This document shows positions 24,050 to 56,549 of a DNA stretch of 64,000 bases, piece by piece. The position numbers and the translations under genes were made by a program. The stretch is from assembly GCF_015223195.1 (NCBI RefSeq), contig NZ_JADFUA010000001.1, forward strand, positions 575,858 to 639,857. Reading direction: 5' to 3'. The number at the start of each line of letters is the position of its first letter. The stretch's first letter is position 1. The notes under the pieces are model-generated. The model ran no database searches, was not told where the DNA came from, and worked only from the letters and a program-made list of their open reading frames with translations. Source of the DNA: Chitinilyticum piscinae. Lineage in GTDB: Bacteria > Pseudomonadota > Gammaproteobacteria > Burkholderiales > Chitinibacteraceae.

Positions 24050-24151
24050 GGGCTTGCTCGTTCAAATCAGATATTGGGGGAAACGTTGGGCACGCCATTT
24101 GCCGCTTGCATGGGCAGATGTTCCAGCGCCAGTGCGCCGCCTGTGCTGGAG

Positions 24152-25207: not shown

Positions 25208-25413
25208 TACGGGATCTTGGCTACAAAGTTCGGAATGATACGCGGGAGCGCAAAACAATGACTGCTTCTGTCAGAAACAGGGTTTCATCGTCTGATTTCA
25301 GCCGGGCCGGACTGGCGACCCTGCCTCAGCGTATCGTGCCATTCATTGTTAATTTGGTGGGTATATTGATGTAGCCATTCATAATAAATGGTTTCGTCGA
25401 TATACCCTTGTAT

Positions 25414-26823: not shown

Positions 26824-27015
26824 GGCAAGGGTGTCCGGGTGATGAAGATGCAAAGCCGAGGGGATTTTGTCAGATTGATGAAATGAATGGCGGAAATTGT
26901 GTGTGACGGTGGTGACAGCACTGCTGTTCGCACATCCCGTTGCACTCACGCGCTTGCCGCATTCGCTCCGCTCCGGTTTAATAACTGACCAGTCAGTCAT
27001 TAAGTGTGTGTCATC

Positions 27016-28765: not shown

Positions 28766-28819
28766 GCAGACATTTGAAGGGCAATGCCATGCTTCAGAGG
28801 CCACTGTGAACCCGCAACG

Positions 28820-30400
28820 ATGAAACCCATCCTTCCCACCCTGTCCCGTTCGGTCGACGACGCCAGCATCCATGCCAACCGCTACATCATCGCGATGACG
28901 GTAACGCTGGCCTGCGTGCTGGAATTGCTCGACACCAGCATCGTCAATGTCGCCATCCCGCACATGATGGGCACGCTGGGCGCGACGCTGGACGAAATCA
29001 CCTGGGTGTCGATCGGCTATGTGGTTGCCAATGTCATCGTACTGCCGATCTCGGGTTTTCTGGGCAATCTGTTTGGCCGGCGCAACTACCTGCTGCTGTC
29101 GATTACGCTGTTCATCGTGGCGTCGATTGCCTGCGGCAACGCCAGCACCCTGCCGGAAATGGTGTTCTGGCGCATCGTGCAGGGCCTGGGCGGCGGCGGG
29201 CTGATCGCGACCGCGCAATCGACGATGTTCGAGGTGTTCCCGCGCAAGGAAATGGGCGCGGCGATGGCGATCTTCGGCATGGGTATCATGCTCGGGCCGA
29301 TGCTGGGACCGACTGTCGGTGGCTGGCTCACCGACCAGTACAGCTGGCCGTGGATTTTCTACATCAACCTGCCGCTGGGCCTGCTGGCGCTGCTGCTGGT
29401 GCTGCTGTACGTGCCGGAATCAAAGCTCAGGCAGAAGGTCGAGCATATCGATTTCACGGGCTTGCTGCTGATGGCCGCCGGCATCGGCGCGCTGCAGCTG
29501 ATGCTGGAGCGCGGCGAGCGGCTGGACTGGTTCGATGCCTGGGAAGTGGTGGCCTATGCGGTGATCAGCATCGCCGCGCTGGGGGCCTTCATCATCCGCC
29601 AGCTGGAACACCTGCACCCGCTGGTCGACCTGCGCGTGTGCCGCGACCCGCAGTTTGCCGCCGGGCTGGTGATGACCTTCTTCCTCGGCGCCTCGCTGTT
29701 TGCCACCGTGTTCATCTTCCCCGTGTATCTGCAGACACTGATGGGCTATTCGGCCTGGCAGACGGGCTTGCTGATCCTGCCTTCTGCCCTGGCATCCGGG
29801 CTGATCATGCCGGTATCGGCACGGCTGGTGAGCAAGGGGTTTCCGGCGCGCGGGCTGATTATCTGCGGTGCTGGCCTGTTCATGTATTCGATGTGGCTGC
29901 ATTACCACTTCACCACGCAGTCGGGCACCTGGGATTTCATGCTGCCGCTGGTGATCCGTGGCGTAGGCCTTGGCATGATTTTCATGCCCTTGAACAATCT
30001 GAGCATGGCCAATCTGCAGCCGCTGCAGATCGGCAGTGCCACGGGCTTGTACAACCTGACCCGCCAGCTTGGCGGCAGTGTCGGCATTGCGCTGTCGGCG
30101 ACGTTTTCGACCAAGCTCTCGCACATGAAAAACGATGTGCTGCTGGAACACCTGAGCGGGCCGTTTGCCAGCGAGCGCCTGGCAATGCTCAAGTCCCGCC
30201 TGCTGGCGAGCGGCATGCCGGTCACCAGCGCGGATGGTGCGGCGCATGCACTGCTGGCGCAGCAAGTGCAGAAACAGGCACTGATGCTGGCCTACGACCA
30301 TCTGTTCATGCTGTTCGGCCTGGCCATGCTGCTGACCCTGCCCTTGCTGGTGGTGATGAAAAAGCAGCAGGTTGCGGCATCGGCAGAAGTGGCACACTAA
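28820..30400 (+). CDS. MFS drug:H+ antiporter, DHA2 (EmrB/QacA) family, 14 TM
   Basis: Start at MKPILPTL. DHA2 motifs LDTSIVNVAIP and GxxxDxxGRR-like FGRRNYLL. 14 predicted TM helices. Confidence 0.85.
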   Translation: MKPILPTLSRSVDDASIHANRYIIAMTVTLACVLELLDTSIVNVAIPHMMGTLGATLDEITWVSIGYVVANVIVLPISGFLGNLFGRRNYLLLSITLFIVASIACGNASTLPEMVFWRIVQGLGGGGLIATAQSTMFEVFPRKEMGAAMAIFGMGIMLGPMLGPTVGGWLTDQYSWPWIFYINLPLGLLALLLVLLYVPESKLRQKVEHIDFTGLLLMAAGIGALQLMLERGERLDWFDAWEVVAYAVISIAALGAFIIRQLEHLHPLVDLRVCRDPQFAAGLVMTFFLGASLFATVFIFPVYLQTLMGYSAWQTGLLILPSALASGLIMPVSARLVSKGFPARGLIICGAGLFMYSMWLHYHFTTQSGTWDFMLPLVIRGVGLGMIFMPLNNLSMANLQPLQIGSATGLYNLTRQLGGSVGIALSATFSTKLSHMKNDVLLEHLSGPFASERLAMLKSRLLASGMPVTSADGAAHALLAQQVQKQALMLAYDHLFMLFGLAMLLTLPLLVVMKKQQVAASAEVAH

Positions 30401-30749
30401 GGGTATATCCCCAAAAGTCATTTGAATAAATGGCTGCATGGTAATACCCATGCAACTGGCTGGCCAAACATGGTGCGCGGCTGATCCCGCTGCGGGCAGG
30501 ATCAGTGCCGCGGCTCTTGCTGCCGCAACCGGAAAACCGCTCAGCATTCCGGAAAATTGCTGATCCGGCGGGTTTATCCCGCCAACCCTTCCAGAAAACT
30601 TGAAAGTGCTTCAAGAAAGCTCTGTGACAGGCCTGCGGGTCATGCGCCTAAGATGAGCTTGTCTTCCCGAGAGGAAGCGGCGCGAGCCACCTGCCAGTTC
30701 TTGGGCAGACTGGCCGCACCCCTGACAAGCATATCAAGAGGGTTCGGAG

Positions 30750-33251
30750 ATGAATGATCTGTTGCAGCCACTGTTCGACCACGCCGGCATGCTGGCTATC
30801 GGCGCGGTGTTGATTGTTTTGCTGGTGAATTCCATCGTCATTGTTGGCGGTGAAGAAATGGCGCTGCTGGAACGCCGCTGGCTGGGGCGCAAGATGCCGC
30901 AGGGGCGGGTGGTGGCGCAGCCCGGTGAGGTGGGGATCCAGGCGCGCACACTCGGGCCGGGACTGCACCTGCTGATTCCCTTCCTGTTCAAGGCGACCAA
31001 GATTCCCTTCGTTACGATTGCCGATGCCGAAATCGGCCTGGTTGAATCCATCGACGGGCATGCGGTATTGCCGGGCAAGATCTTTGCCGAGCCGGTCGAC
31101 GGGCACAACTCCTTCCAGGATGCCGAAGCCTTCCTGCGCAATGGCGGCCAGAAAGGCCCGCAGGTAGCGGTGCTGCCACCGGGGAAATACCGTATCAACC
31201 CGTATCTGTTCCGTGTGGACAAGGCCGCGATGATCACCATCCGCGACCATGAAATCGGTATTGTCGAGGCGACCGATGGCGACCCGATTCCGGCCGGCCG
31301 AATCTTTGCCCGCACGGTGGCCGGCCATCAGGCATTCCAGGACGGCGCCGGGTTTCTGCGCAACGGCGGGCAGAAAGGTCCGCAGATCGACGTGATCCCG
31401 CCGGGGAATTACCGGATCAACCCGCTGCTGTTCAAGGTAAGCAAGAGCGCGGCGGTCAGCATTCCCGAAGACAGCATCGGCCTGATCGAAGCCACGGATG
31501 GCGAGCCGATTCCGGCCGGGCGCATCTTTGCGCGGGTGGTGAAAGGCCATGATGCCTATCAGTCCGGGCAGGCCTTTATCGACAATGGTGGGCAGAAGGG
31601 CCCGCAGATCGATGTGCTGCCTCCGGGGCTGTACCGGATTCACCCGAATCTGTTCAAGCTGCAGATTGTGCCGGCCATCGTGATCGAGAAGGGCGCGGTC
31701 GGGGTGGTGCTGGCACAGGATGGTCTGCCGATTCCGACCGGGCGTCTGCTCGCGCACCGCGTCAGCGGCCATGACAACTTCGAGAATGGCGAGGCCTTCC
31801 TCAACCAGGGCGGGCAGAAAGGGCCGCAGATCGATGTGCTGCTGCCGGGTACTTACCGGATCAATACCGCACTCTTTGCCGTTCGCACCGCGCCGGCCAC
31901 GGTGGTCGAGGCCAATCACGTCGGGCTGGTGACCGCGCTGGACGGTATCCCGCTGCCGGAAAACGAATACGTGGCACGGCAGGTGGGCGGCCATGACGAC
32001 TACCAGAACGGCTCGGCCTTCCTGACCCAGGAAGGCCAGCGTGGCCCGCAGCTGGACGTGCTGCGCCCCGGGACGTATTACATCAACCCGCTGCTGTTTA
32101 CCGTCGAACTGGACAAGGTGGCCGTCATCGAGCGCGGTCAGGTCGGTGTAGTCGTGTCCAACGTCGGGGAGGCCCCGCCCGAGGAAATGATCCGCCGTCT
32201 GTCCGCCACGCAGGGCTCGACACAGGAAGCCGGGCAGGAACGCTATGTGGTGCCCAAGGGCTTCCGCGGGATTCAGGAGGAAGTCGCCGGCCCCGGCAGC
32301 TATTACCTGAATCGTCGCGCCTTCATGGCCTACATCATCGATACGACCAACATCACCATCGACTGGGACGAGCAGGCCGATACCCGCTTTGACGAACTGA
32401 CGGTGATTTCCAAGGATGGCTTCCCCATCCAGGTCTCGGTCAAGGTGGTCATTCGCGTGCGGCCCGATCAGGCGCCCTATATGGTCGCCAAGGTCGGCTC
32501 GGTCGATAACCTGATCCAGCACGTCATCCATCCGATGATCGACTCTTCCTTCCGCAACCAGGCCTCCACGGCCTCGGCGATGGATTTCCTGCAAAGCCGC
32601 TCGGAAGAACAGGCCAAGGCCGAAGCGCGCGTGCGCGCCGATCTGGAGAAATACCACGTCGAATGCGTCTCGGTGCTGATCTGCCAGATCAAGCTGCCTG
32701 CCGAACTGATGGAAACGCAGACCAAGCGCATCATCGCCGAGCAGCAGCTGGAGATGTACAAGATGGAGCAGCGCTCGCAGGTGGAACGCACGCAGATGGA
32801 AAAAATGCGCGCCACCGCCGACCAGCAGCCTGTGCTGGTGGCTTCGGAAATTGCCGTGCAGGTGGCCCAGCAGAAAAAGAGCGAGATGGTGACGCTGGCC
32901 GAAGGCGAGGCCCGTTCCAAGGCGCTCGACGGCGAGGGGGAAGGCAACCGGCTGCGGCTGATCGGTGACGGCGAGGCGGCCAAGATCTCCGCCATCGGTG
33001 AAGCCACCGCGCTGGCCTACCAGAAGCAGACCGAAGCGCTGGGCGAGGATGCCATCCGCTCGATCAAGCTGGTCGAACTGATTTCGGGGGCCATCGAACG
33101 CGGCCAGCTCAAGATTGTTCCCGATGTCATGGTCTCGGGCAGCGGAGCCAGCGAAGGCTTCATGGCCCAGCTGGCCCGCCTGCTCCCCGGCATGGACCTG
33201 GGCCAGCTGCTGGCGCGCGGCAAACCCGATGTGCTGCCGCCACCGCAATAA
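30750..33251 (+). CDS. flotillin/SPFH (band-7) family protein with an expanded N-terminal region of five to six ~75-aa tandem repeats
   Basis: 833 aa. TM helix LAIGAVLIVLLVNSIVIV. SPFH beginning VVAQPGEVGIQARTLGPGLHLLIPF. Five near-identical units (...IG.VEA.DG.PIP.GRIFAR.V.GH..FQ.G.AFL.NGGQKGPQIDV.PPG.YRINP.LFKV) plus a degenerate sixth. Flotillin-type Glu/Ala/Gln-rich coiled-coil C-terminus (EQQLEMYKMEQRSQVERTQMEKMRATADQQ). Confidence 0.8.
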   Translation: MNDLLQPLFDHAGMLAIGAVLIVLLVNSIVIVGGEEMALLERRWLGRKMPQGRVVAQPGEVGIQARTLGPGLHLLIPFLFKATKIPFVTIADAEIGLVESIDGHAVLPGKIFAEPVDGHNSFQDAEAFLRNGGQKGPQVAVLPPGKYRINPYLFRVDKAAMITIRDHEIGIVEATDGDPIPAGRIFARTVAGHQAFQDGAGFLRNGGQKGPQIDVIPPGNYRINPLLFKVSKSAAVSIPEDSIGLIEATDGEPIPAGRIFARVVKGHDAYQSGQAFIDNGGQKGPQIDVLPPGLYRIHPNLFKLQIVPAIVIEKGAVGVVLAQDGLPIPTGRLLAHRVSGHDNFENGEAFLNQGGQKGPQIDVLLPGTYRINTALFAVRTAPATVVEANHVGLVTALDGIPLPENEYVARQVGGHDDYQNGSAFLTQEGQRGPQLDVLRPGTYYINPLLFTVELDKVAVIERGQVGVVVSNVGEAPPEEMIRRLSATQGSTQEAGQERYVVPKGFRGIQEEVAGPGSYYLNRRAFMAYIIDTTNITIDWDEQADTRFDELTVISKDGFPIQVSVKVVIRVRPDQAPYMVAKVGSVDNLIQHVIHPMIDSSFRNQASTASAMDFLQSRSEEQAKAEARVRADLEKYHVECVSVLICQIKLPAELMETQTKRIIAEQQLEMYKMEQRSQVERTQMEKMRATADQQPVLVASEIAVQVAQQKKSEMVTLAEGEARSKALDGEGEGNRLRLIGDGEAAKISAIGEATALAYQKQTEALGEDAIRSIKLVELISGAIERGQLKIVPDVMVSGSGASEGFMAQLARLLPGMDLGQLLARGKPDVLPPPQ

Positions 33252-33276
33252 GGGAGTGATCAATAAGCCAGCAAAG

Positions 33277-33307
33277 CAAACGCGCCAGGATAGCCATGGC
33301 GCGTTTG
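33277..33307. terminator. probable bidirectional terminator hairpin between the convergent flotillin and lipoprotein genes
   Basis: 10-bp stem CAAACGCGCC / GGCGCGTTTG with an 11-nt loop. Lies in the 167-nt gap between convergent stops (33251 and 33419). Confidence 0.5.
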
Positions 33308-33418
33308 CCTTCATCTGAAAGCGAAAATGTCGATGCCTCCGCTTTAGGCCTTGCATCCACATGAAGCATGACAAGGAATCCGGATTCCGCCCGCCAAGGG
33401 CAGCGGGCGGAGTTGGAA

Positions 33419-34834
33419 TCAATCGCTCCAGCCGCCTTCGCAGCGGAAGCTTTCAGCGGGCAGGGTACGCAGCTTGCCGCTGCGTGCATCCAGCTCCCAG
33501 AGGCGGCCTTGGGTCTGTTTGGCATCCCAGCGGTGCTTGTGCCAGCCACTCATGTCATCGCTCTTGCCCTGCTTGAATTTCGGCGAAGGCAAAAAGCCGA
33601 TCTGGACCAGTTGTTTGCTATCACCGATGAGCTGAGGCAGCTTCTGGGTCCCGGTAATGCACGACTGGCCACCTGCTTCGCCCTGATAGGAATGCTCAAC
33701 CGTCAGTTTATTCATGTCGTAGGGGCCAACCGGCTGTGCATCGGCAACCACGAAGCTGCGCTTGTCGACAACCAGTAGCCACTGCTGCTCCGGTCGCGAA
33801 GCCAGAATCAGCTGCCAGTGTCTGGCTGCGTTGTCGTACTCTTCCCGTCCTCCGCCACGAACATCGAACTGAGTGAACGATTTGGCTGCCTTGCTACCGG
33901 GGGGCGTTTCTATCCAGCCAGCGCTTTTGAGCAGCGGGTATTTGCCACTGTCGTCGATCCCGCCGGGCAGGGTCTTGCCGATCAGCAAACGCGGGTCGCT
34001 GCCGAGATTGCTGCTGGCTACCACCTCTTCGGTGCTGGTATTGCGCGCTTTATAGCGACCACTGGCAGGATCAAGGCCCCATACCCTGACGAGCGGTTTG
34101 GCGAGTTGCACCAGCTTGCCCTGAGCATCGCTGATGGTTCCGGTGGTGGTGGTTCGCAACTGCAGTGGCTGGTTGGCACTCGCCAGTACTTCCAGCTTGG
34201 TATCGCTTTCCTGACAACGGGCGTTCGGTTTGCACGCTCCGGCATTGCTGACGGAACCATCAATACTGCCCAGCTCGGCGATCTGACCGTCCTTGTAGCC
34301 ACCAATCAGCCAGCGTTCAGACGAGTACCCCTGCCGGAAAGTCCATGCGCTGATAAGCCAGCCAGCATGCCCAGTGCCCAGATCGAGCCAGCGGATGCTC
34401 TCCGCTGCCGGAGGGTTGCCGAATCCAAGGCTGGATTCTGTTCTTTGTACGGCTTGCCAGCCTTTGCTCGTATTTAAAAAACGCCCAATTAGGATAGAAC
34501 CGCTTGCGGTATTGCCATCCCGTTCTGCGGCGGCAATCGCGTAAAGAGCCTGAGTGCCGTCGGACTCCCGAATCAGTCGCGCATCGAGCACGTACGCTGT
34601 TGCCACGCTGCCATCCTTGAGGCGGATGCGGGCTTGCCCCTGAGCGTTGCTGCTCCCAAACCATGTGTGAGCTAGTCCTACCGTATCTAGTTTGGAAATG
34701 CTGGAAATCTGGACAGGCTTTCCGGCACTGACTGGTGGTTTGGTTGGCTGAGTGGGCGAAGTGGCAGGCTGGACGGTCACACACCCAGCCATTAGTGCTG
34801 CCAGTGGGAGCAGGGCTAGCAGTGGCTTATTCAT
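33419..34834 (-). CDS. lipoprotein, hypothetical (471 aa)
   Basis: Lipobox LLPLAALMAGC. Ser/Thr/Gly-rich secreted protein. Convergent with the flotillin gene. Confidence 0.65.
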   Translation of the reverse strand: MNKPLLALLPLAALMAGCVTVQPATSPTQPTKPPVSAGKPVQISSISKLDTVGLAHTWFGSSNAQGQARIRLKDGSVATAYVLDARLIRESDGTQALYAIAAAERDGNTASGSILIGRFLNTSKGWQAVQRTESSLGFGNPPAAESIRWLDLGTGHAGWLISAWTFRQGYSSERWLIGGYKDGQIAELGSIDGSVSNAGACKPNARCQESDTKLEVLASANQPLQLRTTTTGTISDAQGKLVQLAKPLVRVWGLDPASGRYKARNTSTEEVVASSNLGSDPRLLIGKTLPGGIDDSGKYPLLKSAGWIETPPGSKAAKSFTQFDVRGGGREEYDNAARHWQLILASRPEQQWLLVVDKRSFVVADAQPVGPYDMNKLTVEHSYQGEAGGQSCITGTQKLPQLIGDSKQLVQIGFLPSPKFKQGKSDDMSGWHKHRWDAKQTQGRLWELDARSGKLRTLPAESFRCEGGWSD

Positions 34835-35024
34835 TATTACATTTCCAGTTTAAAAACTGACGCTGAGTGTATAGTTTTCGGGCGGTAGCGCTTGTAACGC
34901 CTCTCACACCTAACGGAATGAGTCTGTCTTGTGTAGCAAACCGCTTTCGCGAAAAGGCGTACATTCTTCAGTAGAAATCCTGCTTCCCTGGAGCATGAGC
35001 GATTTCTCGTCGGATCAAACCGGT

Positions 35025-35645
35025 TTATCCCCACAGACTCAATGCCGGCTCGGTACTGACGGCGCGCAGGATGTCGGTTTTGGAGATGAAGCCGGCGATG
35101 CCCTGATCCGCAGCCAGTACCGGTACGCCGTCCAGCGCGTGGTCAAGCATCAGTGCGGTGACGTGGCGCAGGTCAGTGTCGGGGCTAACCACCAATACCG
35201 GCGTGCGCATGACGTCGGCGACCTGCCGTTGCAGGACCTCGTGCGCGATGCCGTCGGCGATGACCAGCGAAGTGAGCAGATCGCGGTCGCTGACCAGCCC
35301 GACCAGCTGGCCGTCCTGCAGCACCGGACACTGATGGATGCCGTGCGCGTGCAGCAGTTGCCAGGCATCCTGCACGCTGAGTGCGGCATCGGCGGTGATG
35401 ACCGGGCTGTGCATGATGCGCCCGCAGCTGAAGACCGGCCCGCGCTCATGATCGAGCTGCTGGGTGCGCAGGTATTCGTTGCGCGCAAGCTTGCCCGGCA
35501 GGGGCAGCTGGAAGCCGCTGGTGGATTCTTCGTTATTGCGGGCGACGGCGGCGATGCGCCGCGCCGGGTAGAGGCCCGGGGTGGTGTCAAGCTCGCTGCG
35601 CGTGCCATGAAACACGCGGCCGGTGATGCCATAGACCGAAAACAT
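35025..35645 (-). CDS. CBS-pair domain protein
   Basis: 206 aa. Two CBS motifs (IMHSPVITADAALSVQDAWQLLHAHGIHQCPVLQDGQLVGLVSDRDLL; VADVMRTPVLVVSPDTDLRHVTALMLDHALDGVPVL). Downstream of the P-type ATPase on the same strand. Confidence 0.75.
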   Translation of the reverse strand: MFSVYGITGRVFHGTRSELDTTPGLYPARRIAAVARNNEESTSGFQLPLPGKLARNEYLRTQQLDHERGPVFSCGRIMHSPVITADAALSVQDAWQLLHAHGIHQCPVLQDGQLVGLVSDRDLLTSLVIADGIAHEVLQRQVADVMRTPVLVVSPDTDLRHVTALMLDHALDGVPVLAADQGIAGFISKTDILRAVSTEPALSLWG

Positions 35646-35734
35646 GCACGGCTCCTGCCGGATACAGTTGGTGGTATAAGCTTGTAGGCCTTAACTCATA
35701 GCGTTTTATTGGACATACCCAAGTAATTCCAGGC

Positions 35735-38401
35735 TCAGGCACGTGGCAGTAGCAGCCGGCACAGCAGTTTGCGGGCTTCTTCCAGCAGCAGTGTTGTGGA
35801 TGCCAGCCCGATGGCCAGCAGCCAGTCGCGTGCAGCGAGATCGGTGGCGTCGAACACGGCCTGCGCCGGTGCCCAGTGCACGGCCACCACCTGCATCAGC
35901 AGCACGCCGGCCAGAGCCAGCCACAATTTGCCATTGCTGAAGAACTGCTCATTGAAGGCCGAGCCGGATTCGCTGCGGGCATTGAAGATATTGAAAAACT
36001 GGAACAGCACGAAGGTGGTGAAGGCCAGTGTGCCGGCATAGCGCTCGCCATGCGCCGCGCCGAACTGCCAGGCTGCCAGCGTGCCGCAGGCCATGGTGAT
36101 GCCATACAGGGCGATGCGCAGCAGGCGCGGGCCGGTGAGGATGTGCGCGGTGGTGGCTCGCGGCGGCTTGTGCATGATGCCCGGCTGTGCCGGTTCAACG
36201 CCCAGTGTCATCGCCGGCGGCCCATCCATGATGATGTTTACCCACAGGATCTGGATGGCGGTGAACGGCGCCGGCCAGCCCAGCAGCATTGCACCCAGCA
36301 TGGTCAGTAGCGCGCCAATATTGGTCGAGAGCTGGAAGCGCACGAATTTGACGATGTTGTCGTAGATGGTGCGCCCTTCCTGCACGGCATGCACGATGCT
36401 GGCGAAATTGTCGTCGGTGAGCACCATTGCCGCAGCCTCGCGGCTGACTGCGGTGCCGGTCTGCCCCATGGCCACACCGATGTCGGCCGTTTTCAGTGCC
36501 GGTGCGTCGTTCACGCCGTCGCCGGTCATGGCGACGACCTGCCCGCTGGCCTGCAACGCTTCGACAATGCGCATCTTGTGTTCGGGAGCAACGCGGGCAA
36601 ATACGCCGGTGTCGCGCACCAGCGCGGCGGTGGCGGCGGCGTCCAGCCCATCGAGTTCCCGTCCTTCGCGGACCTGGCCGGGCAGGCCAAGCTCGCCGGC
36701 GATGGCGGCCGCGGTGAGGCGGTGGTCGCCGGTAATCATCTTCACGCCAATGCCGGCGCGGTGACAGGCGGCAATCGCCGCGGCGGCTTCGCTGCGCGGC
36801 GGGTCGACCATGCCGGCGAGCCCCAGCAGGGTCAGTCCCTTGCTCCACTGCGCCAGATCCTGGCTGGACGCAAACTCGCTGGCGGGGATAAGGCGGGTTG
36901 CCAGCGCCAGTACCCGCATCGACTGATCAGCCATTGCGCGGGTATGGGCTTGTATACTTTTTATCGCATCGCTTGTGATTGGTATGGAGTGGTGGGTATT
37001 GCTGCTGTGGTGCGTGCTGCGTGCAAGCAGCACATCCGGAGCCCCTTTGACCCAGAGGCGCACCTGCTCGCCTTCGCGATGAAAGGTCGCCATGAATTTG
37101 TTTGCCGAGTCGAAGGGGATTTCGGCCAGCCGCGGGCTGGCGGTACGCAGCGTCCCGGCGTCAAGGCCGGCCTGGGCGGCCAGCTGCAGCAGCGCGCCTT
37201 CGGTGGGATCACCGATGATGTGTTCGCCATCAAGCTGTGCATCCGCGCACAGTACCGCGGCAAGCAGCAATTGCAGCAGCGTGTCATCGGCCTGCAAGCT
37301 CAGCTGCGCCGGTGTCAGGGTGCTGGCATCGTAGCGCTTATCCGCAGCGTACAACTGCCGCACAGCCATGCGGTTCAGCGTCAGCGTGCCGGTCTTGTCC
37401 GAGCAGATGACGGTGGTACAGCCCAGTGTTTCCACTGCGGCGAGTTTTTTCACGATGGCATTCTTGCGCGCCATGCGGTGCATGCCCAGCGCCAGTGTCA
37501 CGGTGACTACCGCGGGCAGTCCTTCCGGAATGGCGGCAACGGCGAGCGCAATCGCGGTCATGGCGGTTTGTGCCAGCGGATCTCCGCGCAGAATGCCCAG
37601 CAGAAAAAACAGCAACACGACAAAACCGGCAATCAGTGCCAGCCGCTGGCCGAGCCGGTCGAGCTGGCGCTGCAGTGGGGTAGCCGATTCGGCCGTGGCC
37701 GCCAGCAGGTGCGCCAGCCGGCCGGTTTCGGTGCGCATGCCGGTGGCGGTGACGATGGCTTCCAGCCGGCCACGGGTCACGACGGTGTTCATGTACAGCA
37801 TGTTGCTGCGCTCGGCCAGTGGCGTATCGGCTGGCAGTGGGCTGCTGCCCTTCTCCAGCGGATGGGCCTCACCGGTCAGGCTGGCCTCGCTGACTTCGGC
37901 GCCGTGGGCGGCCAGCACCCTGGCATCTGCCGGCACACGGTCGCCGGCCTCCAGCAGGATCAGGTCTCCGGGTACCAGCTCGCTGGCCGGGATATCGCAG
38001 ACTTCGCCATCGCGCCGCACGCGCGCCGTGTGGGCCAGCATGGCTTTCAGGGCGGCGAGTGCGGCTTCGGCACGGTTTTCCTGGATAAAACCCAGCGTGG
38101 CGTTCAGGAGCACTACCAGCACGATGACCACGGCATCGGTGAGATCCCCGATCAGCGCGGCGACAGCGGCAGCGGCCAGCAGAATCAGGATCAGCAGATT
38201 GCGGAACTGGTCGGCAAAGCGCAGCCAGCCTGGCCGGCGTGCCGCTTCCTGCAGGCGGTTGAGCCCGCATTCAGCCAACCTGCTCCGTGCAAGTGCGGCA
38301 GCAAGCCCCTGCTGCGTGCTGTGCAGCGCCGCCACAACCTGCTCGCTGGACAGGGAATGCCAGTGCATCGAGGCATCGGGGGGATGGTGTGATGGATCCA
38401 T
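35735..38401 (-). CDS. cation-transporting P-type ATPase (P2-type, Ca2+/Mg2+-ATPase-like)
   Basis: DKTGTLT phosphorylation motif ([12 protein letters not shown]). [20 protein letters not shown] in TM4. About 10 TM helices. Start taken at MDPSHH...[15 protein letters not shown] (~38401) within ORF 35735..38539. Confidence 0.9.
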
Positions 38402-38546
38402 GCGTCCTCCTGCTCTCATAGTAGTCGCTCCACCGTGCGCAGGTCGGCAGGTCTGCAGCGGGGTATGGCGATGGCCGGTACTGCAAAGTCGGCGGCTTTG
38501 CGACAAAATCGGGATATTCAAGCATGTTCCGGAATTCAAAATTCAA

Positions 38547-39704
38547 ATGGCAGACAGTCACCGTAAATTGAAAGTTCTTTGTGTATTTGGCACCCGTCCG
38601 GAAGCCATCAAGATGGCGCCGGTGATCAGGGCCTTGCAGGCGGATGAGCAAATGGATTGCCTGGTCTGTGTGACCGCGCAGCACCGGGAGATGCTTGATC
38701 AGGTGATGCGGCTGTTCGGTTTGCAGGCTGATTTTGATCTCGATCTGATGCGCCCGGGACAAACACTGGCCAGTCTGACCTCACGTGTTCTGGAAGGGGT
38801 GACCGATGTGCTGGAGCGCTGCCGGCCCGATATCGTGCTGGTGCATGGTGATACGTCCACTACCCTGGCGGCAGGACTGGCTTCGTTTTACCAGCGCATT
38901 CCGGTCGCGCATGTCGAGGCTGGCCTGCGCACCGGGGATATGGAGGCACCGTGGCCGGAGGAGCTGAATCGTTCGGTGGTCGGGCTGTTTGCCCGTCTGC
39001 ATTTTGCGCCCACCGGGCAGGCTGCCCAGAACCTTCGTGCGGAGGGGCGCCGTGAGGAGGATATTTTCATCACCGGGAATACCGTGATTGATGCACTGCT
39101 TGGCATCAGCAAACAGCTGGACGAGAACCCGGCACTGGCGCAAGAGCAGGCCACGCGTTTCCCCTTTCTGGCTGCGGACAAGAAGCTGGTGCTGGTGACC
39201 GGCCATCGCCGCGAGAATTTTGGCGATGGTTTTCTGAATATCTGCAAGGGACTGGCCAGGCTGGCCAGCCGTGACGACATCCAGATTGTCTATCCGGTGC
39301 ACCTGAACCCGAATGTGCAGGAGCCAGTCAATGCGCTACTGCGCGGCTTGCCGAACATTCATCTGATCGAGCCCCAGGATTACCTGCCCTTCGTGTATCT
39401 GCTTAAGCGTGCCGAGCTGATTCTGACCGACAGCGGGGGGATTCAGGAGGAGGCACCGGCACTGGGCAAGCCGGTGCTGGTCATGCGTGACACCACTGAG
39501 CGTCCCGAAGCCGTGGCTGCCGGCACAGCCAGACTGGTGGGGACGGACTGTGAGCGCATCGTCGCGGCGGTCAGCAATTTGCTGGATGACCGTCAGGCCT
39601 ATCTTGGCATGACCGAGGCGCCCAATCCCTACGGCAATGGCCAGGCTGCCGCACAGATCCGCGCCGCCATGCTCGATTGGTGGGCGCGAACCCGAGCGGA
39701 ATGA
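38547..39704 (+). CDS. wecB: UDP-N-acetylglucosamine 2-epimerase (non-hydrolysing)
   Basis: 385 aa beginning [27 protein letters not shown]. Contains HVEAGLRT and the ...[27 protein letters not shown] motifs. Start lies inside the longer spurious ORF 37368..39704. Confidence 0.9.
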
Positions 39705-39715
39705 AAAGCAGGTTT

Positions 39716-41860
39716 CTAAGTCTGTGGCGCATCCTGCCCTGAGCGTGCAGAAGGGATTTCCTGGGCCTGTTGCAGTTTTTGCAGCTGTTCGAAGTCTTCC
39801 CGGCTGATGGCACCCTTGCTGATCAGATAGTTGATCAGGTGCTGATGCTCATCCAGATCAAAGCCCCTGATGGCCTCATCCAGCTCGCGAGCCGTGAGCA
39901 GATTGTGGATGACCATCAGGTCGATCAGGGCGGGTTTCCCATCAGGCAGGAAGTCCGAGCTGAGCCCCGAGAGCAGGCGCAGCGCGGCATTGATCTCGCT
40001 CTCGCGAGCGATGAACTGGCGGATGGGTTTGCCCAGTTGTTGCTCCAGAGCATCCTTGTCCGTATCGGTCAGCGGGGTGGCAACCGCCACATGGATGAGT
40101 TGCTCGTGCTGCAGAAACGGGATCGCCCGCAGGCGGAAGCAATGTTCGAAAGCCAGCCGCCGATGCAGCTGCAGGATGCCGTCCTTATCCAGCCTGGCGC
40201 GGCGCAGGTCATATTGCGCGGAGATGGCCTCCGCCAGCGTTTCATCATCCAGTGCGCCTTGCACCACCAGCAAGCGCCCGACAGGCAACTGGAACTGGCT
40301 TTGCTGGCGCAGCGCGGTTTCGAGTTGCTCGGGCTCGATGGCTTGCCAGCTGACCAGCAGCTCGCCCAGCCGTTTGCGCTGTTTGGCCAGCCTTTCTGCC
40401 GAAGGAAAGTGGTGCATGGTCTTGTCCCAGACCAGGCGCTTGCCAGTAAACAGAAAGTTGAGAAACATCCGCCAGGCGCGCATCGTCGCCAGAAAGTTGA
40501 TCAGATTGCTGACCGCCATGCGAGGGATCGACATCAGTCCCTGTTCCCAACCGTATAGCCGGTTCACGAAATAGAAGCGCTGCACGACGCGACTGATCAT
40601 GATGGAGCCGGTGAAGGTGGCGATGTACAGCGGCCAGCTACCGGGGGCGAAAATCGGCGGAAAATGCAGTGTCCACCAGCCCGCCTTGCTGGCAATGTAG
40701 AAAGCGAGAAACTGGAAGAAGACCAGATAAGCCAGCACATTGAGCAGCGAGGTAACGATGCCTTTGCGGTCACGGAACAGCAGGTATCGATCTGCCAGCG
40801 AGCCGTGCCAGCCCAGATGCATCCAGCCCTGCAGGCTGATGCCGAGTACCCAGCGTGCGCGCTGGCGGTAGGAGGTGTACAGGGTATCGGGGAAATATTC
40901 GCGCACGCAAAGCGGCATGTCGATCACGGTTTCCCGGTCTGCCGCCAGGCCGAACCAGCTCTTGCGCCGCACCTGGAATTGCACCGGGAAGCGGGCAAAG
41001 ATGGTCTTCATATCGGTGGCCGCCAGCCGGGTGCCGATGTCGTAGTCTTCGGTCAGGCTGTCGGTGTTGAAGGGCTGGTTATTGCTGTCTGCACACAGGT
41101 GCAGGAGGGCCCGCCGGGAAAAGCAGGTGCCCACTCCGGCGGAGGGCACCATCCCCGAGAGGCTCTCGCGTACGACCAGATCCTTGCCATGCCATTCGGC
41201 AAATTCATCCATGTAGGTGCCGGCCACCAGCTCGAACCAGTCGCGCTCGAGCGAGGTAACTGGCAGCTGGATCATGTCCTTGCGCGGCAGCAAGTAATTG
41301 AAAAACTTGAGTTCCAGCGGGTGCAGCACATCTTCGGCATCGTGCATGACAATCCCGGCAAATTCGATGCCGTTATCCTGCTCGTACTTGAAAATGGCCT
41401 GGATGATCCAGTTCAGGCAATCTGCCTTGCAGGTCGGCCCGGGATTGGGCACTTCCACCCGCAGCAAATGGCGGAAATGGCGGCGAACACGTTCGACTTC
41501 GTCGATGGTGGCCTGATCATTGCAATAGGTGCCCACGAACACGACATAGCGGCGATAGTCGAGCACACTCATCATGTTCTCGACCATCTGCGCGATGACA
41601 TCGTATTCCTGCCAGGCCGGCACCATGATCGCCAGATATTGCTCGTTTTTTTCCTTGAGCTGGGCCGCACTGAGTGGCCGGTAATCCGCACGGCGCTTGA
41701 TCGTGAGCTTGCGCCAGAGCTCGCGCGCCCAGTACCAGATGTCGATGAAGACATCATCCACGCTGGAGATGAGGATCAGGATGGTCAGAACAACCGCCAC
41801 GACCTCCAGTGCCGCATAGTACTGGGCAAAATAGACTGACGTTCCAAGCGAGAGACTCAC
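39716..41860 (-). CDS. processive family-2 glycosyltransferase with C-terminal MshEN-type c-di-GMP-binding domain (NfrB-like exopolysaccharide synthase)
   Basis: 714 aa. N-terminal TM helix. GT2 domain with VMHDAEDV (DxD), SLTEDYDIG (TED) and YRQRARWVLG (QxxRW). About four C-proximal TM helices. Cytoplasmic tail carries RLGELLVSWQAIEPEQLETALRQQ, then a 7-aa spacer, then GRLLVVQGALDDETLAEAISAQ. These match the two tandem MshEN motifs (RLGxxL(L/V)xxGx(I/L)xxxxLxxALxxQ). Confidence 0.85.
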   Translation of the reverse strand: MSLSLGTSVYFAQYYAALEVVAVVLTILILISSVDDVFIDIWYWARELWRKLTIKRRADYRPLSAAQLKEKNEQYLAIMVPAWQEYDVIAQMVENMMSVLDYRRYVVFVGTYCNDQATIDEVERVRRHFRHLLRVEVPNPGPTCKADCLNWIIQAIFKYEQDNGIEFAGIVMHDAEDVLHPLELKFFNYLLPRKDMIQLPVTSLERDWFELVAGTYMDEFAEWHGKDLVVRESLSGMVPSAGVGTCFSRRALLHLCADSNNQPFNTDSLTEDYDIGTRLAATDMKTIFARFPVQFQVRRKSWFGLAADRETVIDMPLCVREYFPDTLYTSYRQRARWVLGISLQGWMHLGWHGSLADRYLLFRDRKGIVTSLLNVLAYLVFFQFLAFYIASKAGWWTLHFPPIFAPGSWPLYIATFTGSIMISRVVQRFYFVNRLYGWEQGLMSIPRMAVSNLINFLATMRAWRMFLNFLFTGKRLVWDKTMHHFPSAERLAKQRKRLGELLVSWQAIEPEQLETALRQQSQFQLPVGRLLVVQGALDDETLAEAISAQYDLRRARLDKDGILQLHRRLAFEHCFRLRAIPFLQHEQLIHVAVATPLTDTDKDALEQQLGKPIRQFIARESEINAALRLLSGLSSDFLPDGKPALIDLMVIHNLLTARELDEAIRGFDLDEHQHLINYLISKGAISREDFEQLQKLQQAQEIPSARSGQDAPQT

Positions 41861-44058
41861 AGCGCAACATCACCCTTGCGACGGCGGCGGATCTGCGTGA
41901 GACGTGCAAGCAGCAGCACGAAACCGACCAGGCCGATCAGACCGGTCCATAGCCACCAGTAGCGATCCCAGACGGTATCCGGATCAGCGGCTTCTGCCAG
42001 CGCGCTACCGTCCGGATCGTGCTGATCCAGCTGGATTACTTTGCCATCCCCAGTGATGATGGCCAGGTTTCCGCGATCAAGTGATGGGGTATTGTCTTGA
42101 ATCTCTGGTATTTCAGCGCCTGTGGATGTATACAATACACCGTATTGGCCGCCGGCCTTGACGATTTCGGCGAGCCCGAGCTTGTGAAGCTGGTTGGCCC
42201 CCAGATTCTGCACGGCCTTGCCGTTAACGAGCACCTGACCATTGCGCAGAGAGGTCACGGGGCTGACACCCGGTAGCGTTACACCCACGGCAAAGAAGGT
42301 ACTTTCGGGTACGGGGGCGGCCTGCTTCTGGGCGATGAAGCGTGCCGGTGCCATATCGGCACTGGCACCCAGTGCGCTGGCCATGTCGATCAGGCCAGGC
42401 AGGTTCTTCTGTGCCTGATCAAGCAGTGAATCGGCAAGTAGCACAGTGCCGGTGCTGCCAAAACGCGTACTGATGCCCATGAAGTTGCTGCTGCCAAGCG
42501 ATTTGCCAAGCTGCAGGTGGCTTCCGGGGAGCAAGGACACCGGATAGGCAACCGGGGTGTCATGGCAGCGCGGGGTGCTGGGCTGGCGGTTGAAGCGCAC
42601 TGTGAGCGTGTTCTTGCTGCGCAGGATATAGTCAGGAATTGCAACTTCGATGCGTTGAACCTTGCCATTGCTGCGCACGTGCTGCGCACCGAGCAGCAGA
42701 TCATTCAGGAAGACCGATACCACCGGCTTTTCCTGCTGCTGATTAGGGGCGGCAGAGACATCCAGCACCACGGCCGTCGGCTGTTTGCCGCTTGTGCTCA
42801 AATCAGCCAGTGAAAACGACACACTGCGCTGTCCCTGGCTGAGTATGTCGAGGCTGCCGGAGAAGGCGGCCAATTTGTCCAGCAGGATGGCGTCCCTTCT
42901 GAGCGAAAAATCACCAGACTGGCTTTCCGGCTGGGCGCGCAGATCATTACGCAGCTGTTGCCACGCCGGCTGGAATGTATTTCCCAGATGGCGAGCCTGC
43001 GCACCAACGATAATCAGCGGCTGCCCAGCAAATTGCCCCAGCGCGATTGAATCGTTGGCCTGTGGCAGCGCGAAGCGCTTGCTGCGCCAGGCCGCGAAGC
43101 TGGCGGCACTGTCAGCCGATACTTCGGCCATCTGTGCCTGCAACGCATCCAGCGCTTTCTGGATGGCTCCGCGCAGGGCCGGGCTGTCGACCAGCAGATC
43201 GGCGGACAGCGGCCCCTGTCGCCCCAGTACCAGCAGTGCGCCCAACTGGGCTTCGTCGGCAATGAGATGGCTGGGTGATGCCTTGCTCAAGGCAGCAAAG
43301 GCCGGGATGCCCTGCAGACTGGCCGGCACCTGGATGCTGCGCAGGTCAATCTGGCTGCCAACGGTTGGCAGGCTGCGCAATTGCAGCCGTTTGTTGTGCT
43401 CTTTCAGCAGCACGCCGATGCGCCATGCCTGATCAAAGCTCTGTGGGTCGCTACGTCCCGCAGGAAGAAGGAGGATCGGCTCGGGGGGCAGCGATTGCCA
43501 TGCTGCCGTGGCGCTCATGACGTCATCGGCATCAAAGCTGAATTCCAGTCGTGTGGCCGGATTGATGTTCAGAATGTTGCCATCGCTGGATTCGCTGCTG
43601 CAGACCTGCTCCGCAAGCGCGGAGGACCAGCCTACGGAAAATTGCAGGAACCCATTGCGGATTTGCGTGTTGCCCAGAGCCAGCGGCAGCTGGAGTGGGG
43701 CGCTATCAGCGGTGATGTTCTGGCTGAGTACCGGGACGCCATTGGCCGTCACCTGCAAGGTCGAGCGGCCACCGCTGCCGCGCAGATAGTTGCCATTCAA
43801 CTGGAGGCTGGCTTGCTGCAGGGCGATGCCAGCTGGTACCGGAAAGTAAAAGTCACGTGAGCTGTTGCGGCCGCGCAGGGTAACCGGCTCGGGGATGCCG
43901 ATCTGGGTCAGCGGGATCGAGCGCGTGACCAGAGACCTGCTTTGCCAGCTGGCAAACTGATCACCAGCAGGACCGGCATGAGTCGTGGCGCCAAGCGAGG
44001 CAAGAACAGGAATAAGTACTGCCGCCAGAAAGCGGCTGGGGTAGAAAAGAGCTGGCAT
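41857..44058 (-). CDS. large periplasmic protein with C-terminal membrane anchor (BcsB-like architecture), translationally coupled to the GT2 gene
   Basis: 733 aa. Signal peptide FLAAVLIPVLASLGATTHA. ~690-aa soluble region. C-terminal TM helix WWLWTGLIGLVGFVLLLARL with basic tail TQIRRRRKG. The stop overlaps the GT2 start by 4 nt. Assignment to the BcsB family rests on architecture and context only, not a verified alignment. Confidence 0.55.
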   Translation of the reverse strand: MPALFYPSRFLAAVLIPVLASLGATTHAGPAGDQFASWQSRSLVTRSIPLTQIGIPEPVTLRGRNSSRDFYFPVPAGIALQQASLQLNGNYLRGSGGRSTLQVTANGVPVLSQNITADSAPLQLPLALGNTQIRNGFLQFSVGWSSALAEQVCSSESSDGNILNINPATRLEFSFDADDVMSATAAWQSLPPEPILLLPAGRSDPQSFDQAWRIGVLLKEHNKRLQLRSLPTVGSQIDLRSIQVPASLQGIPAFAALSKASPSHLIADEAQLGALLVLGRQGPLSADLLVDSPALRGAIQKALDALQAQMAEVSADSAASFAAWRSKRFALPQANDSIALGQFAGQPLIIVGAQARHLGNTFQPAWQQLRNDLRAQPESQSGDFSLRRDAILLDKLAAFSGSLDILSQGQRSVSFSLADLSTSGKQPTAVVLDVSAAPNQQQEKPVVSVFLNDLLLGAQHVRSNGKVQRIEVAIPDYILRSKNTLTVRFNRQPSTPRCHDTPVAYPVSLLPGSHLQLGKSLGSSNFMGISTRFGSTGTVLLADSLLDQAQKNLPGLIDMASALGASADMAPARFIAQKQAAPVPESTFFAVGVTLPGVSPVTSLRNGQVLVNGKAVQNLGANQLHKLGLAEIVKAGGQYGVLYTSTGAEIPEIQDNTPSLDRGNLAIITGDGKVIQLDQHDPDGSALAEAADPDTVWDRYWWLWTGLIGLVGFVLLLARLTQIRRRRKGDVAL

Positions 44059-56444: not shown

Positions 56445-56549
56445 TCTCATGAGGTGATTTCCTGTGTGCAACACGCAGGCCGGGCAGCCTGTAGCTGCAG
56501 ACGGTATCCTTGTCATGGAAGAGACAACAAGTTTTCTGGAGTAGTGTGT

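What the first reader, a model, noticed from the sequence alone, without database searches (positions are those of the whole stretch)
40211..40372. Tandem MshEN-type c-di-GMP-binding motifs inside the GT2 C-terminus
Residues ~497-549 of the 714-aa GT2 read RLGELLVSWQAIEPEQLETALRQQ-SQFQLPV-GRLLVVQGALDDETLAEAISAQ. This fits the bipartite 24-residue MshEN consensus (RLGxxLlxxGxIxxxQLxxALxxQ, ~5-7-aa spacer, then xGxxLvxxGxLxxxxLxxALxxQ) with only two deviations in motif I (W-Q replacing G-I/L).

The following ~165 aa are helical and could form the rest of a T2SSE_N-like domain, plus a possible degenerate second copy (…LIDLMVIHNLLTARELDEAIRGFDLDEHQHL…). The synthase is therefore predicted to be post-translationally gated by c-di-GMP. 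That ties it to the many c-di-GMP enzymes in this window.
Basis: partly seen in the sequence, partly recalled or inferred. Interest (0 to 1): 0.7.

Follow-up and report, generated by a model that had tools for sequence, protein, structure and literature searches.

The report
NfrB-type c-di-GMP-sensing polysaccharide synthase
The motif is real: this membrane sugar-polymerising enzyme carries the same c-di-GMP-sensing tail as the E. coli NfrB synthase, so it is a correct but ordinary annotation of a known kind of signal-activated enzyme.

Summary
Window 40211-40372 (minus strand) encodes residues 497-550 of a 714-aa GT2 (39716-41860, -). These residues form the complete 53-residue c-di-GMP-binding module of an MshEN domain: a 24-residue motif, a 5-residue spacer and a second 24-residue motif. 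NCBIfam NF053729 matches 497-549 end to end above its cut-off, and Pfam MshEN covers 565-632. The region aligns without gaps to V. cholerae MshE (5HTL), and an AlphaFold model superposes on c-di-GMP-bound MshE and PilF. The one real deviation, Q506 where MshE has Gly18, is family-wide. E. coli NfrB shares it and binds c-di-GMP at about 1 uM.

The protein is 100% identical to a Chitinilyticum piscinae protein. It is a full-length member of NCBIfam PRK15489, the sister family of E. coli NfrB (39% identity). Its gene overlaps a BcsB-like gene upstream and faces a convergent wecB. The GT2-MshEN fusion, its c-di-GMP control and the BcsB/wecB linkage are all published, so this is a new member of a known kind.

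Only one GGDEF-EAL gene lies in the window, about 29 kb away. The "second copy" is a decayed remnant of a second module that is intact in nearly all relatives. This locus also lacks the nfrA porin gene.

The parts
39716..41860 (-). 714-aa NfrB-type GT2 synthase (PRK15489 family). It has an N-terminal TM helix, a GT2 domain (76-339; HDAED 173-177, TED 270-272, QRARW 333-337), membrane helices at about 355-472, and a cytoplasmic MshEN domain plus tail.
   Evidence: (100% to Chitinilyticum piscinae protein)
40301..40372 (-). Motif I of the c-di-GMP module, residues 497-520: RLGELLVSWQAIEPEQLETALRQQ. R497/L498/G499/L513/L517/Q520 correspond to MshE R9/L10/G11/L25/L29/Q32. Q506 replaces MshE G18.
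   Evidence: PMC5013675
40286..40300 (-). 5-residue spacer, residues 521-525 (SQFQL), the same length as in MshE.
40214..40285 (-). Motif II, residues 526-549: PVGRLLVVQGALDDETLAEAISAQ. It is a full match to the relaxed published motif. P526/V527/G528/G535/L542/I546/Q549 correspond to MshE R38/L39/G40/G47/L54/L58/Q61.
39965..40213 (-). MshEN_C (T2SSE_N-type alpha/beta) subdomain, residues 550-632.
   Evidence: Pfam PF05157 565-632; model secondary structure; Foldseek to 5htl and PilF GSPII-B
39770..39931 (-). Degenerate remnant of a second tandem c-di-GMP-type module, residues 644-697. The position-3 glycines of both motifs are Ile (I646, I676). Only 5 of 16 family-conserved columns are kept.
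41857..44058 (-). 733-aa BcsB-like periplasmic partner with a signal peptide and a C-terminal TM anchor. Its stop overlaps the GT2 start by 4 nt (GTGA), which suggests one operon with translational coupling.
   Evidence: Pfam BcsB PF03170 E 2e-16; 36-38% identity to the operon partners in Stenotrophomonas and Herbaspirillum; hydropathy
38547..39704 (+). 385-aa WecB, a non-hydrolysing UDP-GlcNAc 2-epimerase. It is convergent and ends 11 nt from the GT2 stop. It is the likely supplier of the UDP-ManNAc substrate.
   Evidence: Pfam Epimerase_2; TIGR00236 wecB 504 bits; 59% identity to operon-linked wecB of Stenotrophomonas

Best explanation
The gene encodes an inner-membrane, processive family-2 glycosyltransferase of the NfrB type. 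It belongs to NCBIfam PRK15489, the sister family of E. coli NfrB.

Its cytoplasmic C-terminus is a complete MshEN domain. A 53-residue four-helix module (residues 497-549) made of two 24-residue motifs would clamp one c-di-GMP molecule. It is followed by the alpha/beta MshEN_C subdomain (550-632).

By analogy with E. coli NfrB, c-di-GMP binding to this domain allosterically switches on the GT2 domain. The enzyme would then polymerise a ManNAc-containing exopolysaccharide from UDP-ManNAc made by the adjacent WecB. It would work together with the co-translated BcsB-like periplasmic partner.

Status of each step:
- Shown here: homology, motif integrity, family-wide conservation, predicted fold and gene linkage.
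- Inferred from the E. coli homologue: c-di-GMP binding, activation, and ManNAc as substrate.
- Unknown: how the polymer crosses the outer membrane in this organism, because no nfrA is present in the locus.
For: Domain and sequence evidence:
- NF053729 matches 497-549 end to end above cut-off. PRK15489 scores 1050 bits (cut-off 537) over residues 8-700.
- Pfam GT2 and MshEN both score above their gathering thresholds.
- The motif region aligns without gaps, in register, with MshE 5htl. 10 of the 14 published contact or turn residues are identical, two are conservative (V527, I546), and the K/R patch at 493-497 is kept (PMC5013675).
- Motif columns are nearly invariant in 116 homologues. 23 of 24 conserved columns of module 1 are kept in the window protein.

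Structure:
- The AlphaFold model has pLDDT 84.5 and the expected helix pattern.
- Foldseek top hits are BcsA and hyaluronan synthase.
- The C-terminal domain matches c-di-GMP-bound MshE (TM 0.68-0.71, 28-29% identity) and PilF GSPII-B.

Comparison with E. coli NfrB:
- It is 39% identical over 708 aa and has the same Gln at motif I position 10.
- It binds c-di-GMP with Kd of about 1 uM and needs both the MshEN glycines and the GT active site (PMC8669469, PMC8669472).

Catalytic motifs and context:
- HDAED, TED and QRARW are present.
- The BcsB-like gene overlaps the GT2 start, and wecB is adjacent.
- The same wecB / bcsB-like / GT2 trio is conserved in Stenotrophomonas, Herbaspirillum and Andreprevotia.
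Against: - Nothing has been measured for this protein or for any member of the PRK15489 subfamily.
- It scores below the cut-off of the NfrB equivalog model (628 vs 1170 bits), so it is a paralogous family and not NfrB itself.
- Motif I lacks the turn glycine (Q506) and motif II lacks the Arg (P526). Both variants are tolerated in known binders or in the published relaxed motif, but affinity cannot be predicted.
- No NfrA-type porin, AlgX/AlgF or MBOAT gene is in the window, so the machine may be incomplete or may use other partners.
- No diguanylate cyclase is genetically linked.
Confidence: 0.8

Rival explanations
1. The MshEN-like domain is a ligand-free protein-interaction or scaffold domain. 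This would resemble the N-terminal domains of Xanthomonas PilB or XpsE, which share the fold but dock PilZ or XpsL rather than binding c-di-GMP. The synthase would then not be gated by c-di-GMP.
For: The fold also matches the PilB(N)-PilZ complex 7lkm (TM 0.69). Motif I lacks the conserved turn glycine, and motif II starts with Pro rather than Arg.
Against: Identity to 7lkm is only 15%, against 27-29% to the c-di-GMP-bound MshE and PilF domains. All ligand-contacting Leu, Gly and Gln positions are conserved across 116 homologues. The dedicated c-di-GMP motif model scores above its cut-off. E. coli NfrB has the same Gln substitution and binds c-di-GMP (PMC8669469).
Confidence: 0.1
2. The locus is a decaying remnant of an Nfr-type system. 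It has lost the outer-membrane porin gene, the acetylation genes and the second sensor module, and it no longer makes a secreted polymer. The intact motif would then have no physiological output.
For: No nfrA, algX or MBOAT homologue is in the window, and the 77%-identical relative lacks them too. The second module is degenerate. wecB is inverted relative to the ancestral operon order.
Against: The GT2 ORF is intact and keeps 240 of 258 family-conserved columns in residues 1-490 and 23 of 24 in module 1. GT2 and module 1 are 83-86% identical between the two Chitinilyticum-lineage proteins, while the tail is 41% identical. That pattern indicates purifying selection on the catalytic and first sensor parts. 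The BcsB-like partner and wecB are intact. An nfrA elsewhere in the genome was not excluded, because the search is insensitive.
Confidence: 0.1

Closest known systems
E. coli NfrB (b0569), the c-di-GMP-activated glycosyltransferase of the NfrBA-YbcH N4-glycan-receptor system (Junkermeier & Hengge 2021, PMC8669469; Sellner et al. 2021, PMC8669472)
   Same: It has the same architecture: an N-terminal TM helix, a GT2 domain with DxD/TED/QxxRW, membrane helices, and a C-terminal MshEN domain with the tandem 24-residue motifs. It is 39% identical over 708 aa. It shares the Gln at motif I position 10 and the functional link to WecB and UDP-ManNAc.
   Different: It scores below the NfrB equivalog cut-off and belongs to PRK15489. 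The partner is a 733-aa BcsB-like protein encoded upstream rather than YbcH, and no sequence similarity to YbcH was found. No nfrA lies downstream. The spacer is 5 residues, against 4 in E. coli. The second C-terminal module is decayed.
The nfrB / bcsB-like / wecB / nfrA / O-acetyltransferase clusters of Achromobacter xylosoxidans and Simplicispira, noted bioinformatically in PMC8669472 and PMC8669469; the same type was seen here in Stenotrophomonas, Herbaspirillum and Andreprevotia
   Same: The GT2 is orthologous (59-63% identity), as are the BcsB-like partner (36-38%) and wecB (59%).
   Different: Those clusters continue with an NfrA_C porin gene, and in the two clusters read here from Stenotrophomonas and Herbaspirillum also with AlgX/AlgF/MBOAT genes. 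They also keep an intact second c-di-GMP-type module. The window locus has neither.
V. cholerae MshE N-terminal domain (MshEN, PDB 5HTL; Wang et al. 2016, PMC5013675) and T. thermophilus PilF GSPII-B
   Same: The 53-residue four-helix c-di-GMP module and the alpha/beta subdomain are shared, with the motif region aligned in register without gaps. Identity is 27-29% and TM 0.62-0.71 on the domain.
   Different: There the domain sits at the N-terminus of a secretion or pilus ATPase. Here it is at the C-terminus of a glycosyltransferase. The window protein has Q506 for Gly18 and P526 for Arg38.
BcsA-BcsB cellulose synthase (PDB 4P00, 5EJ1)
   Same: These are the best overall structural matches to the GT2 and membrane part. 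The partner is a BcsB-type periplasmic subunit with a C-terminal TM anchor. The synthase is activated by c-di-GMP through a C-terminal cytoplasmic receptor domain.
   Different: The receptor is MshEN, not PilZ. There are fewer membrane helices. Sequence identity is 13-15%. The likely substrate is UDP-ManNAc rather than UDP-glucose.

Membership tests
MshEN domain (c-di-GMP-binding type; Pfam PF05157 / NCBIfam NF053729) | Profile match above the curated thresholds | tested here: met
   NF053729 scores 48.9 bits (cut-off 38) over 497-549, covering profile positions 1-53 of 53. PF05157 scores 34.6 bits (cut-off 23.1) over 565-632.
MshEN domain (c-di-GMP-binding type; Pfam PF05157 / NCBIfam NF053729) | [quoted passage not shown] | tested here: met
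   The motifs are at 497-520 and 526-549 with a 5-residue spacer. Motif II passes the relaxed published pattern in full. Motif I fails only at position 10 (Q506 for Gly), a substitution also present in the c-di-GMP-binding E. coli NfrB (PMC5013675).
MshEN domain (c-di-GMP-binding type; Pfam PF05157 / NCBIfam NF053729) | Four-helix bundle plus alpha/beta subdomain fold, superposable on ligand-bound MshE | tested here: met
   The AlphaFold model (pLDDT 77-93 per 10-residue block across the domain) matches 5htl at TM 0.68-0.71 and rmsd 3.4-4.0 over 138-141 columns, and it matches the PilF GSPII-B c-di-GMP complexes. This rests on a predicted structure, not a solved one.
MshEN domain (c-di-GMP-binding type; Pfam PF05157 / NCBIfam NF053729) | Specific high-affinity binding of c-di-GMP | not testable with these tools
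   This needs DRaCALA, ITC or MST on the purified fragment.
NfrB (NCBIfam NF008411 equivalog, c-di-GMP-activated glycosyltransferase NfrB) | Score at or above the equivalog cut-off (1170 bits) | tested here: not met
   The score is 628.5 bits, and the alignment stops at residue 630. E. coli NfrB itself scores 1332.7. The protein is therefore NfrB-like and not an NfrB equivalog.
NfrB (NCBIfam NF008411 equivalog, c-di-GMP-activated glycosyltransferase NfrB) | Operon with the nfrA outer-membrane porin gene and ybcH | tested here: not met
   tblastn with NfrA homologues from two relatives finds nothing in the window. The upstream partner is BcsB-like and shows no similarity to YbcH.
PRK15489 (NCBIfam NF012033 equivalog, 'glycosyl transferase family protein') | Full-length match above the cut-off (537 bits) | tested here: met
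   It scores 1050.8 bits, with residues 8-700 matching profile positions 7-696 of 703.
Processive membrane GT2 synthases (BcsA, HAS, NfrB type) | DxD, TED and QxxRW catalytic signatures and a membrane-embedded GT-A fold | tested here: met
   HDAED is at 173-177, TED at 270-272 and QRARW at 333-337. All three are invariant in the family. The top Foldseek hits are BcsA 5ej1/4p00 and hyaluronan synthases.

The most novel reading that the evidence does not exclude
NfrB-type synthases, both the PRK15489 family and E. coli NfrB, may carry a second stand-alone 53/54-residue c-di-GMP-type four-helix module at the extreme C-terminus. I found no description of it in the held NfrB papers. If it binds ligand, these synthases would be two-site c-di-GMP sensors. 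The Chitinilyticum lineage would then be a natural single-site variant that lost site 2, in the same lineage whose locus lacks the nfrA porin gene.
Probability: 0.3. Interest if true: 0.45.

Novelty: new member of a known kind. Interest (0 to 1): 0.22.

Why it matters
The finding upgrades a bare "glycosyl transferase family protein" annotation in Chitinilyticum piscinae to a predicted c-di-GMP-activated exopolysaccharide synthase. The likely product is ManNAc-based and could serve as a biofilm matrix component or a phage receptor. It opens no new question, because the GT2-MshEN fusion was noted in 2016 and validated in E. coli in 2021.

The modest added value lies in three points:
- The Gly-to-Gln variant of motif I is a family trait compatible with binding.
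- Relatives carry a second module that nobody appears to have examined.
- This lineage offers a natural variant with one sensor module and no linked porin gene.

Tried and rejected
- **Chance match:** rejected. The relaxed motif occurs only twice in about 72,000 aa of six-frame segments, and only here do motifs occur in tandem. The columns are nearly invariant in 116 homologues.
- **"Many c-di-GMP enzymes in the window":** rejected. phmmer with the window's own GGDEF and EAL domains against all six-frame segments found only the source gene. Pfam scans of 40 of the 54 non-overlapping ORF calls, including every ORF of 200 aa or more, added none; 14 short ORFs (92-183 aa) were not scanned with Pfam.
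- **Search for nfrA, algX, algF or MBOAT in the window:** tblastn with the Stenotrophomonas and Herbaspirillum proteins found nothing.
- **Search for an nfrA elsewhere in Chitinilyticum:** a genome-contig scan with the Andreprevotia NfrA-like protein gave 92 relatives, none from Chitinilyticum. The scan depends on six exact peptide words from a single query, so this is inconclusive rather than evidence of absence.
- **BcsB-like partner as a long form of YbcH:** no similarity was found. It also has no sequence relative in the PDB.
- **Literature search for work on the family in Achromobacter, Stenotrophomonas or Xanthomonas:** the query was badly designed (min_terms 2) and returned irrelevant papers. 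Searches for a described second MshEN module in NfrB found nothing.
- **First translation:** one search was done on the wrong strand and was repeated on the minus strand.
Full report
**The observation**

The finding lies in a 714-aa ORF on the minus strand, 39716..41860. Translating 40211-40372 on the minus strand gives RLGELLVSWQAIEPEQLETALRQQSQFQLPVGRLLVVQGALDDETLAEAISAQY, which is residues 497-550. My first translation was on the wrong strand.

Three database searches agree on what this is.
- Pfam finds GT2 domains (Glyco_tranf_2_3 at 76-339, E 1.6e-35) and MshEN PF05157 at 565-632 (34.6 bits, cut-off 23.1).
- NCBIfam's dedicated domain model NF053729, [quoted passage not shown], matches residues 497-549 to profile positions 1-53 of 53. 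The score is 48.9 bits against a cut-off of 38, with E 4e-13.
- phmmer against PDB sequences aligns residues 492-615 with V. cholerae MshE 5htl residues 4-128. The stretch covering both motifs has no gaps.

**Residue-level comparison with MshE**

Wang et al. [quoted passage not shown] The contacts are Arg9, Leu10, Gly11, Leu25, Leu29 and Gln32 in motif I, and Arg38, Leu39, Gly40, Leu54, Leu58 and Gln61 in motif II. Gly18 and Gly47 are the turn glycines.

In register, the window protein compares as follows:

| Motif | MshE residues | Window residues |
|---|---|---|
| I | R9, L10, G11, L25, L29, Q32 | R497, L498, G499, L513, L517, Q520 |
| II | R38, L39, G40, L54, L58, Q61 | P526, V527, G528, L542, I546, Q549 |
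| Turns | G18, G47 | Q506, G535 |

The basic patch K493/R495/K496 is also kept. The spacer is SQFQL, 5 residues as in MshE.

The spacer is 5 residues and not 7. The only real deviation in motif I is Q506 at position 10. Motif II satisfies the authors' relaxed search pattern [RKPN]hGxxhhxx[GAS]hhxxxxhxxxhxx[QNKRYWST] completely.

**Not chance**

The relaxed pattern occurs twice in about 72,000 aa of six-frame ORF segments from the window. Only here do motifs occur in tandem.

Among 116 full-length homologues the motif columns are almost invariant. G499, L502, W505, G528, G535, L537, L542-A545 and Q549 are present in 116 of 116, and R497 in 106 of 116. W505-Q506 is a family signature, not a defect of this sequence. 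The window protein keeps 23 of the 24 columns of module 1 that are at least 90% conserved in the other members.

**Fold**

An AlphaFold2 model of the whole protein, built from a 60-sequence alignment, has mean pLDDT 84.5 and pTM 0.71. Its C-terminal part has three elements:
- helices 498-504, 510-523, 527-533 and 539-550, forming a four-helix module;
- an alpha/beta unit at 559-631;
- a second set of helices at 645-699.

Foldseek against the PDB puts cellulose synthase BcsA (5ej1, 4p00, 4hg6) and hyaluronan synthases on top for the GT2 and membrane part. The C-terminal domain matches c-di-GMP-bound MshE (5htl, TM 0.68-0.71 on the target, rmsd 3.4-4.0, 28-29% identity) and the c-di-GMP-bound PilF GSPII-B domain (8pfa, 8pdk, 8pkz; 27% identity).

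The catalytic signatures are present: HDAED at 173-177, TED at 270-272 and QRARW at 333-337. All three are invariant in the family.

**What the protein is**

It is 100% identical to a protein that NCBI names [quoted passage not shown]. That species is a betaproteobacterium of the Chitinibacteraceae.

It is a full-length member of NCBIfam equivalog PRK15489 (1050.8 bits, cut-off 537). It scores below the cut-off of the NfrB equivalog (628.5 vs 1170 bits). It is 39% identical to E. coli K-12 NfrB over 708 residues.

E. coli NfrB is the published prototype of a GT2-MshEN fusion:
- Its C-terminal fragment binds c-di-GMP specifically, with Kd of about 1 uM.
- The MshEN glycines and the GT active site are both needed for function.
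- WecB supplies UDP-ManNAc (PMC8669469, PMC8669472).
- Fusion of MshEN to glycosyltransferases was already noted by Wang et al. in 2016 (PMC5013675).

E. coli NfrB reads PLGQILLENQVI... in motif I. It has the same Gln at position 10 as the window protein, so this deviation is compatible with binding.

**Surroundings**

The gene upstream on the same strand (41857..44058) encodes a 733-aa protein with a signal peptide, a BcsB domain (PF03170, E 2e-16) and a C-terminal TM anchor. Its stop overlaps the GT2 start by 4 nt.

Convergent on the plus strand, ending 11 nt from the GT2 stop, is a wecB gene (38547..39704). It scores 504 bits against TIGR00236.

Relatives have the operon wecB, bcsB-like, GT2-MshEN, then nfrA-like (NfrA_C), and in two of them also AlgX/AlgF/MBOAT acetylation genes. 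The relatives checked were Stenotrophomonas, Herbaspirillum and Andreprevotia. This cluster type, including the BcsB homologue and O-acetyltransferases, was already pointed out for Achromobacter xylosoxidans by Sellner et al. and for Simplicispira by Junkermeier and Hengge.

The window has no nfrA, algX, algF or MBOAT homologue. Its 77%-identical metagenomic relative has the same pta, ackA, bcsB-like, GT2, P-type ATPase order without nfrA. A genome-collection scan with the Andreprevotia NfrA found no Chitinilyticum locus, but that method is too insensitive to prove absence.

**The "second copy"**

The family consensus of the tail is LLGDLLVEMGLIARDQFERALDEY, then RPQRDG, then RIGDYLVKHGVATEAAIAEAVREQ (residues 644-697 in window numbering). 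That is a second tandem module.
- NF053729 reports two stretches in four relatives and in E. coli NfrB, but only one in the window protein.
- Family profiles of modules 1 and 2 align in register over 52 columns (hhalign probability 96%, E 2e-9).

In the window protein the position-3 glycines of both tail motifs are Ile (I646, I676).
- Only 5 of 16 conserved columns survive.
- The tail scores 12.8 bits against the family's module-2 HMM, versus 98 bits for a typical member.
- Among the 116 aligned members, only this protein and its 77% relative have lost both glycines.
- Between those two, the tail is 41% identical while GT2 and module 1 are 83-86% identical. This indicates relaxed constraint on the tail only.

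These are also the only two of the six loci inspected (five distinct GT2 proteins) that lack nfrA. This is one lineage, so the coincidence is anecdotal. The analogous MshE substitutions G11L and G40I are among the binding-site variants that Wang et al. tested (PMC5013675). G491L in E. coli NfrB abolished N4 infection (PMC8669472). I therefore expect the window protein's tail not to bind c-di-GMP.

**The link to other c-di-GMP enzymes**

I ran Pfam scans on 40 of the 54 non-overlapping ORF calls, which covered every ORF of 200 aa or more and left only 14 short ones (92-183 aa) unscanned. I also ran a phmmer scan of every six-frame segment of 80 aa or more, using the window's own GGDEF and EAL domains as queries. 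Together they find a single GGDEF-EAL protein (7847-11038), about 29 kb away. They also find a CHASE2 class III nucleotidyl cyclase (5625-7763), which is not a c-di-GMP enzyme.

**Mechanism**

The best-supported account is as follows. One c-di-GMP molecule is clamped by the 497-549 four-helix module. The Leu clusters and the Gly backbone amides read the guanines, and the Gln residues contact ribose and phosphate, as in 5HTL. This relieves an inactive state of the GT2 domain. The enzyme, together with the BcsB-like subunit, then polymerises and translocates a ManNAc-containing glycan from WecB-made UDP-ManNAc.

Homology, motif integrity, fold and gene linkage are shown here. Binding, activation and substrate are inferred from E. 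coli NfrB. The allosteric route is unknown even for NfrB, and the outer-membrane exit in this organism is unknown.

**Rivals**

A non-binding scaffold domain of the PilB(N) or XpsE(N) type is unlikely. The contact residues are conserved, and identity to c-di-GMP-bound domains is higher than to PilB(N) (27-29% vs 15%).

A decaying remnant is also unlikely. The GT2 domain, module 1, the BcsB-like gene and wecB are all intact and conserved.

**Verdict**

However, this is a new member of an already described kind of c-di-GMP-activated synthase, and interest is low. The only mildly new items are the family-wide second module, which I did not find mentioned in the held NfrB papers, and its lineage-specific decay here.

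Noticed in passing
window 39770-39931 (-), residues 644-697; relatives P0003, P0005, P0034, P0119; E. coli NfrB L087:5945-8179(-), residues about 660-720: Nearly all PRK15489 members and E. coli NfrB carry a second tandem c-di-GMP-type module at the extreme C-terminus. NF053729 reports two stretches in them, and hhalign of the module 1 and module 2 family profiles gives 96% probability. In the window protein and its 77% relative both key glycines are lost. I found no mention of a second module in the held NfrB papers.
   Followed up: yes
window 35735-44058, compared with loci L001, L003, L004, L005: Relatives have wecB, bcsB-like, GT2 and nfrA-like genes, in two of them followed by AlgX/AlgF/MBOAT genes. 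This window lacks nfrA and the acetylation genes, has wecB inverted downstream of the GT2, and has a P-type cation ATPase where nfrA would be. Whether an nfrA exists elsewhere in the genome is unresolved.
   Followed up: partly
window 21833-34834, plus 34929-35687: A run of about 13 kb of large ORFs (738, 410, 564, 566, 375, 924 and 471 aa, plus a 252-aa ORF) has essentially no Pfam or NCBIfam hits. The only hits are DUF4034 and a sub-threshold WD40 match. GC3 is lower here (0.61-0.68) than in most of the window (about 0.75-0.85). It may be an acquired island of unknown function.
   Followed up: partly
protein P0115 (1094 aa, JGI metagenome): This homologue of the GT2 carries an additional precomputed Pfam hit, PF10995. 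From memory that is the BcsE/GIL c-di-GMP-binding domain, which I did not verify. If so, it is a GT2 fused to a different c-di-GMP receptor.
   Followed up: no
window 5625-7763 (-) and 7847-11038 (-): A CHASE2 class III nucleotidyl cyclase lies next to a 1063-aa HAMP-PAS-GGDEF-EAL-CZB (zinc-binding) protein. The latter is the only c-di-GMP turnover gene in the window.
   Followed up: partly
window 55401-56801 (-): A 466-aa protein with a polysaccharide deacetylase domain (PF01522) lies about 14 kb from the synthase. No link to the synthase has been established.
   Followed up: no
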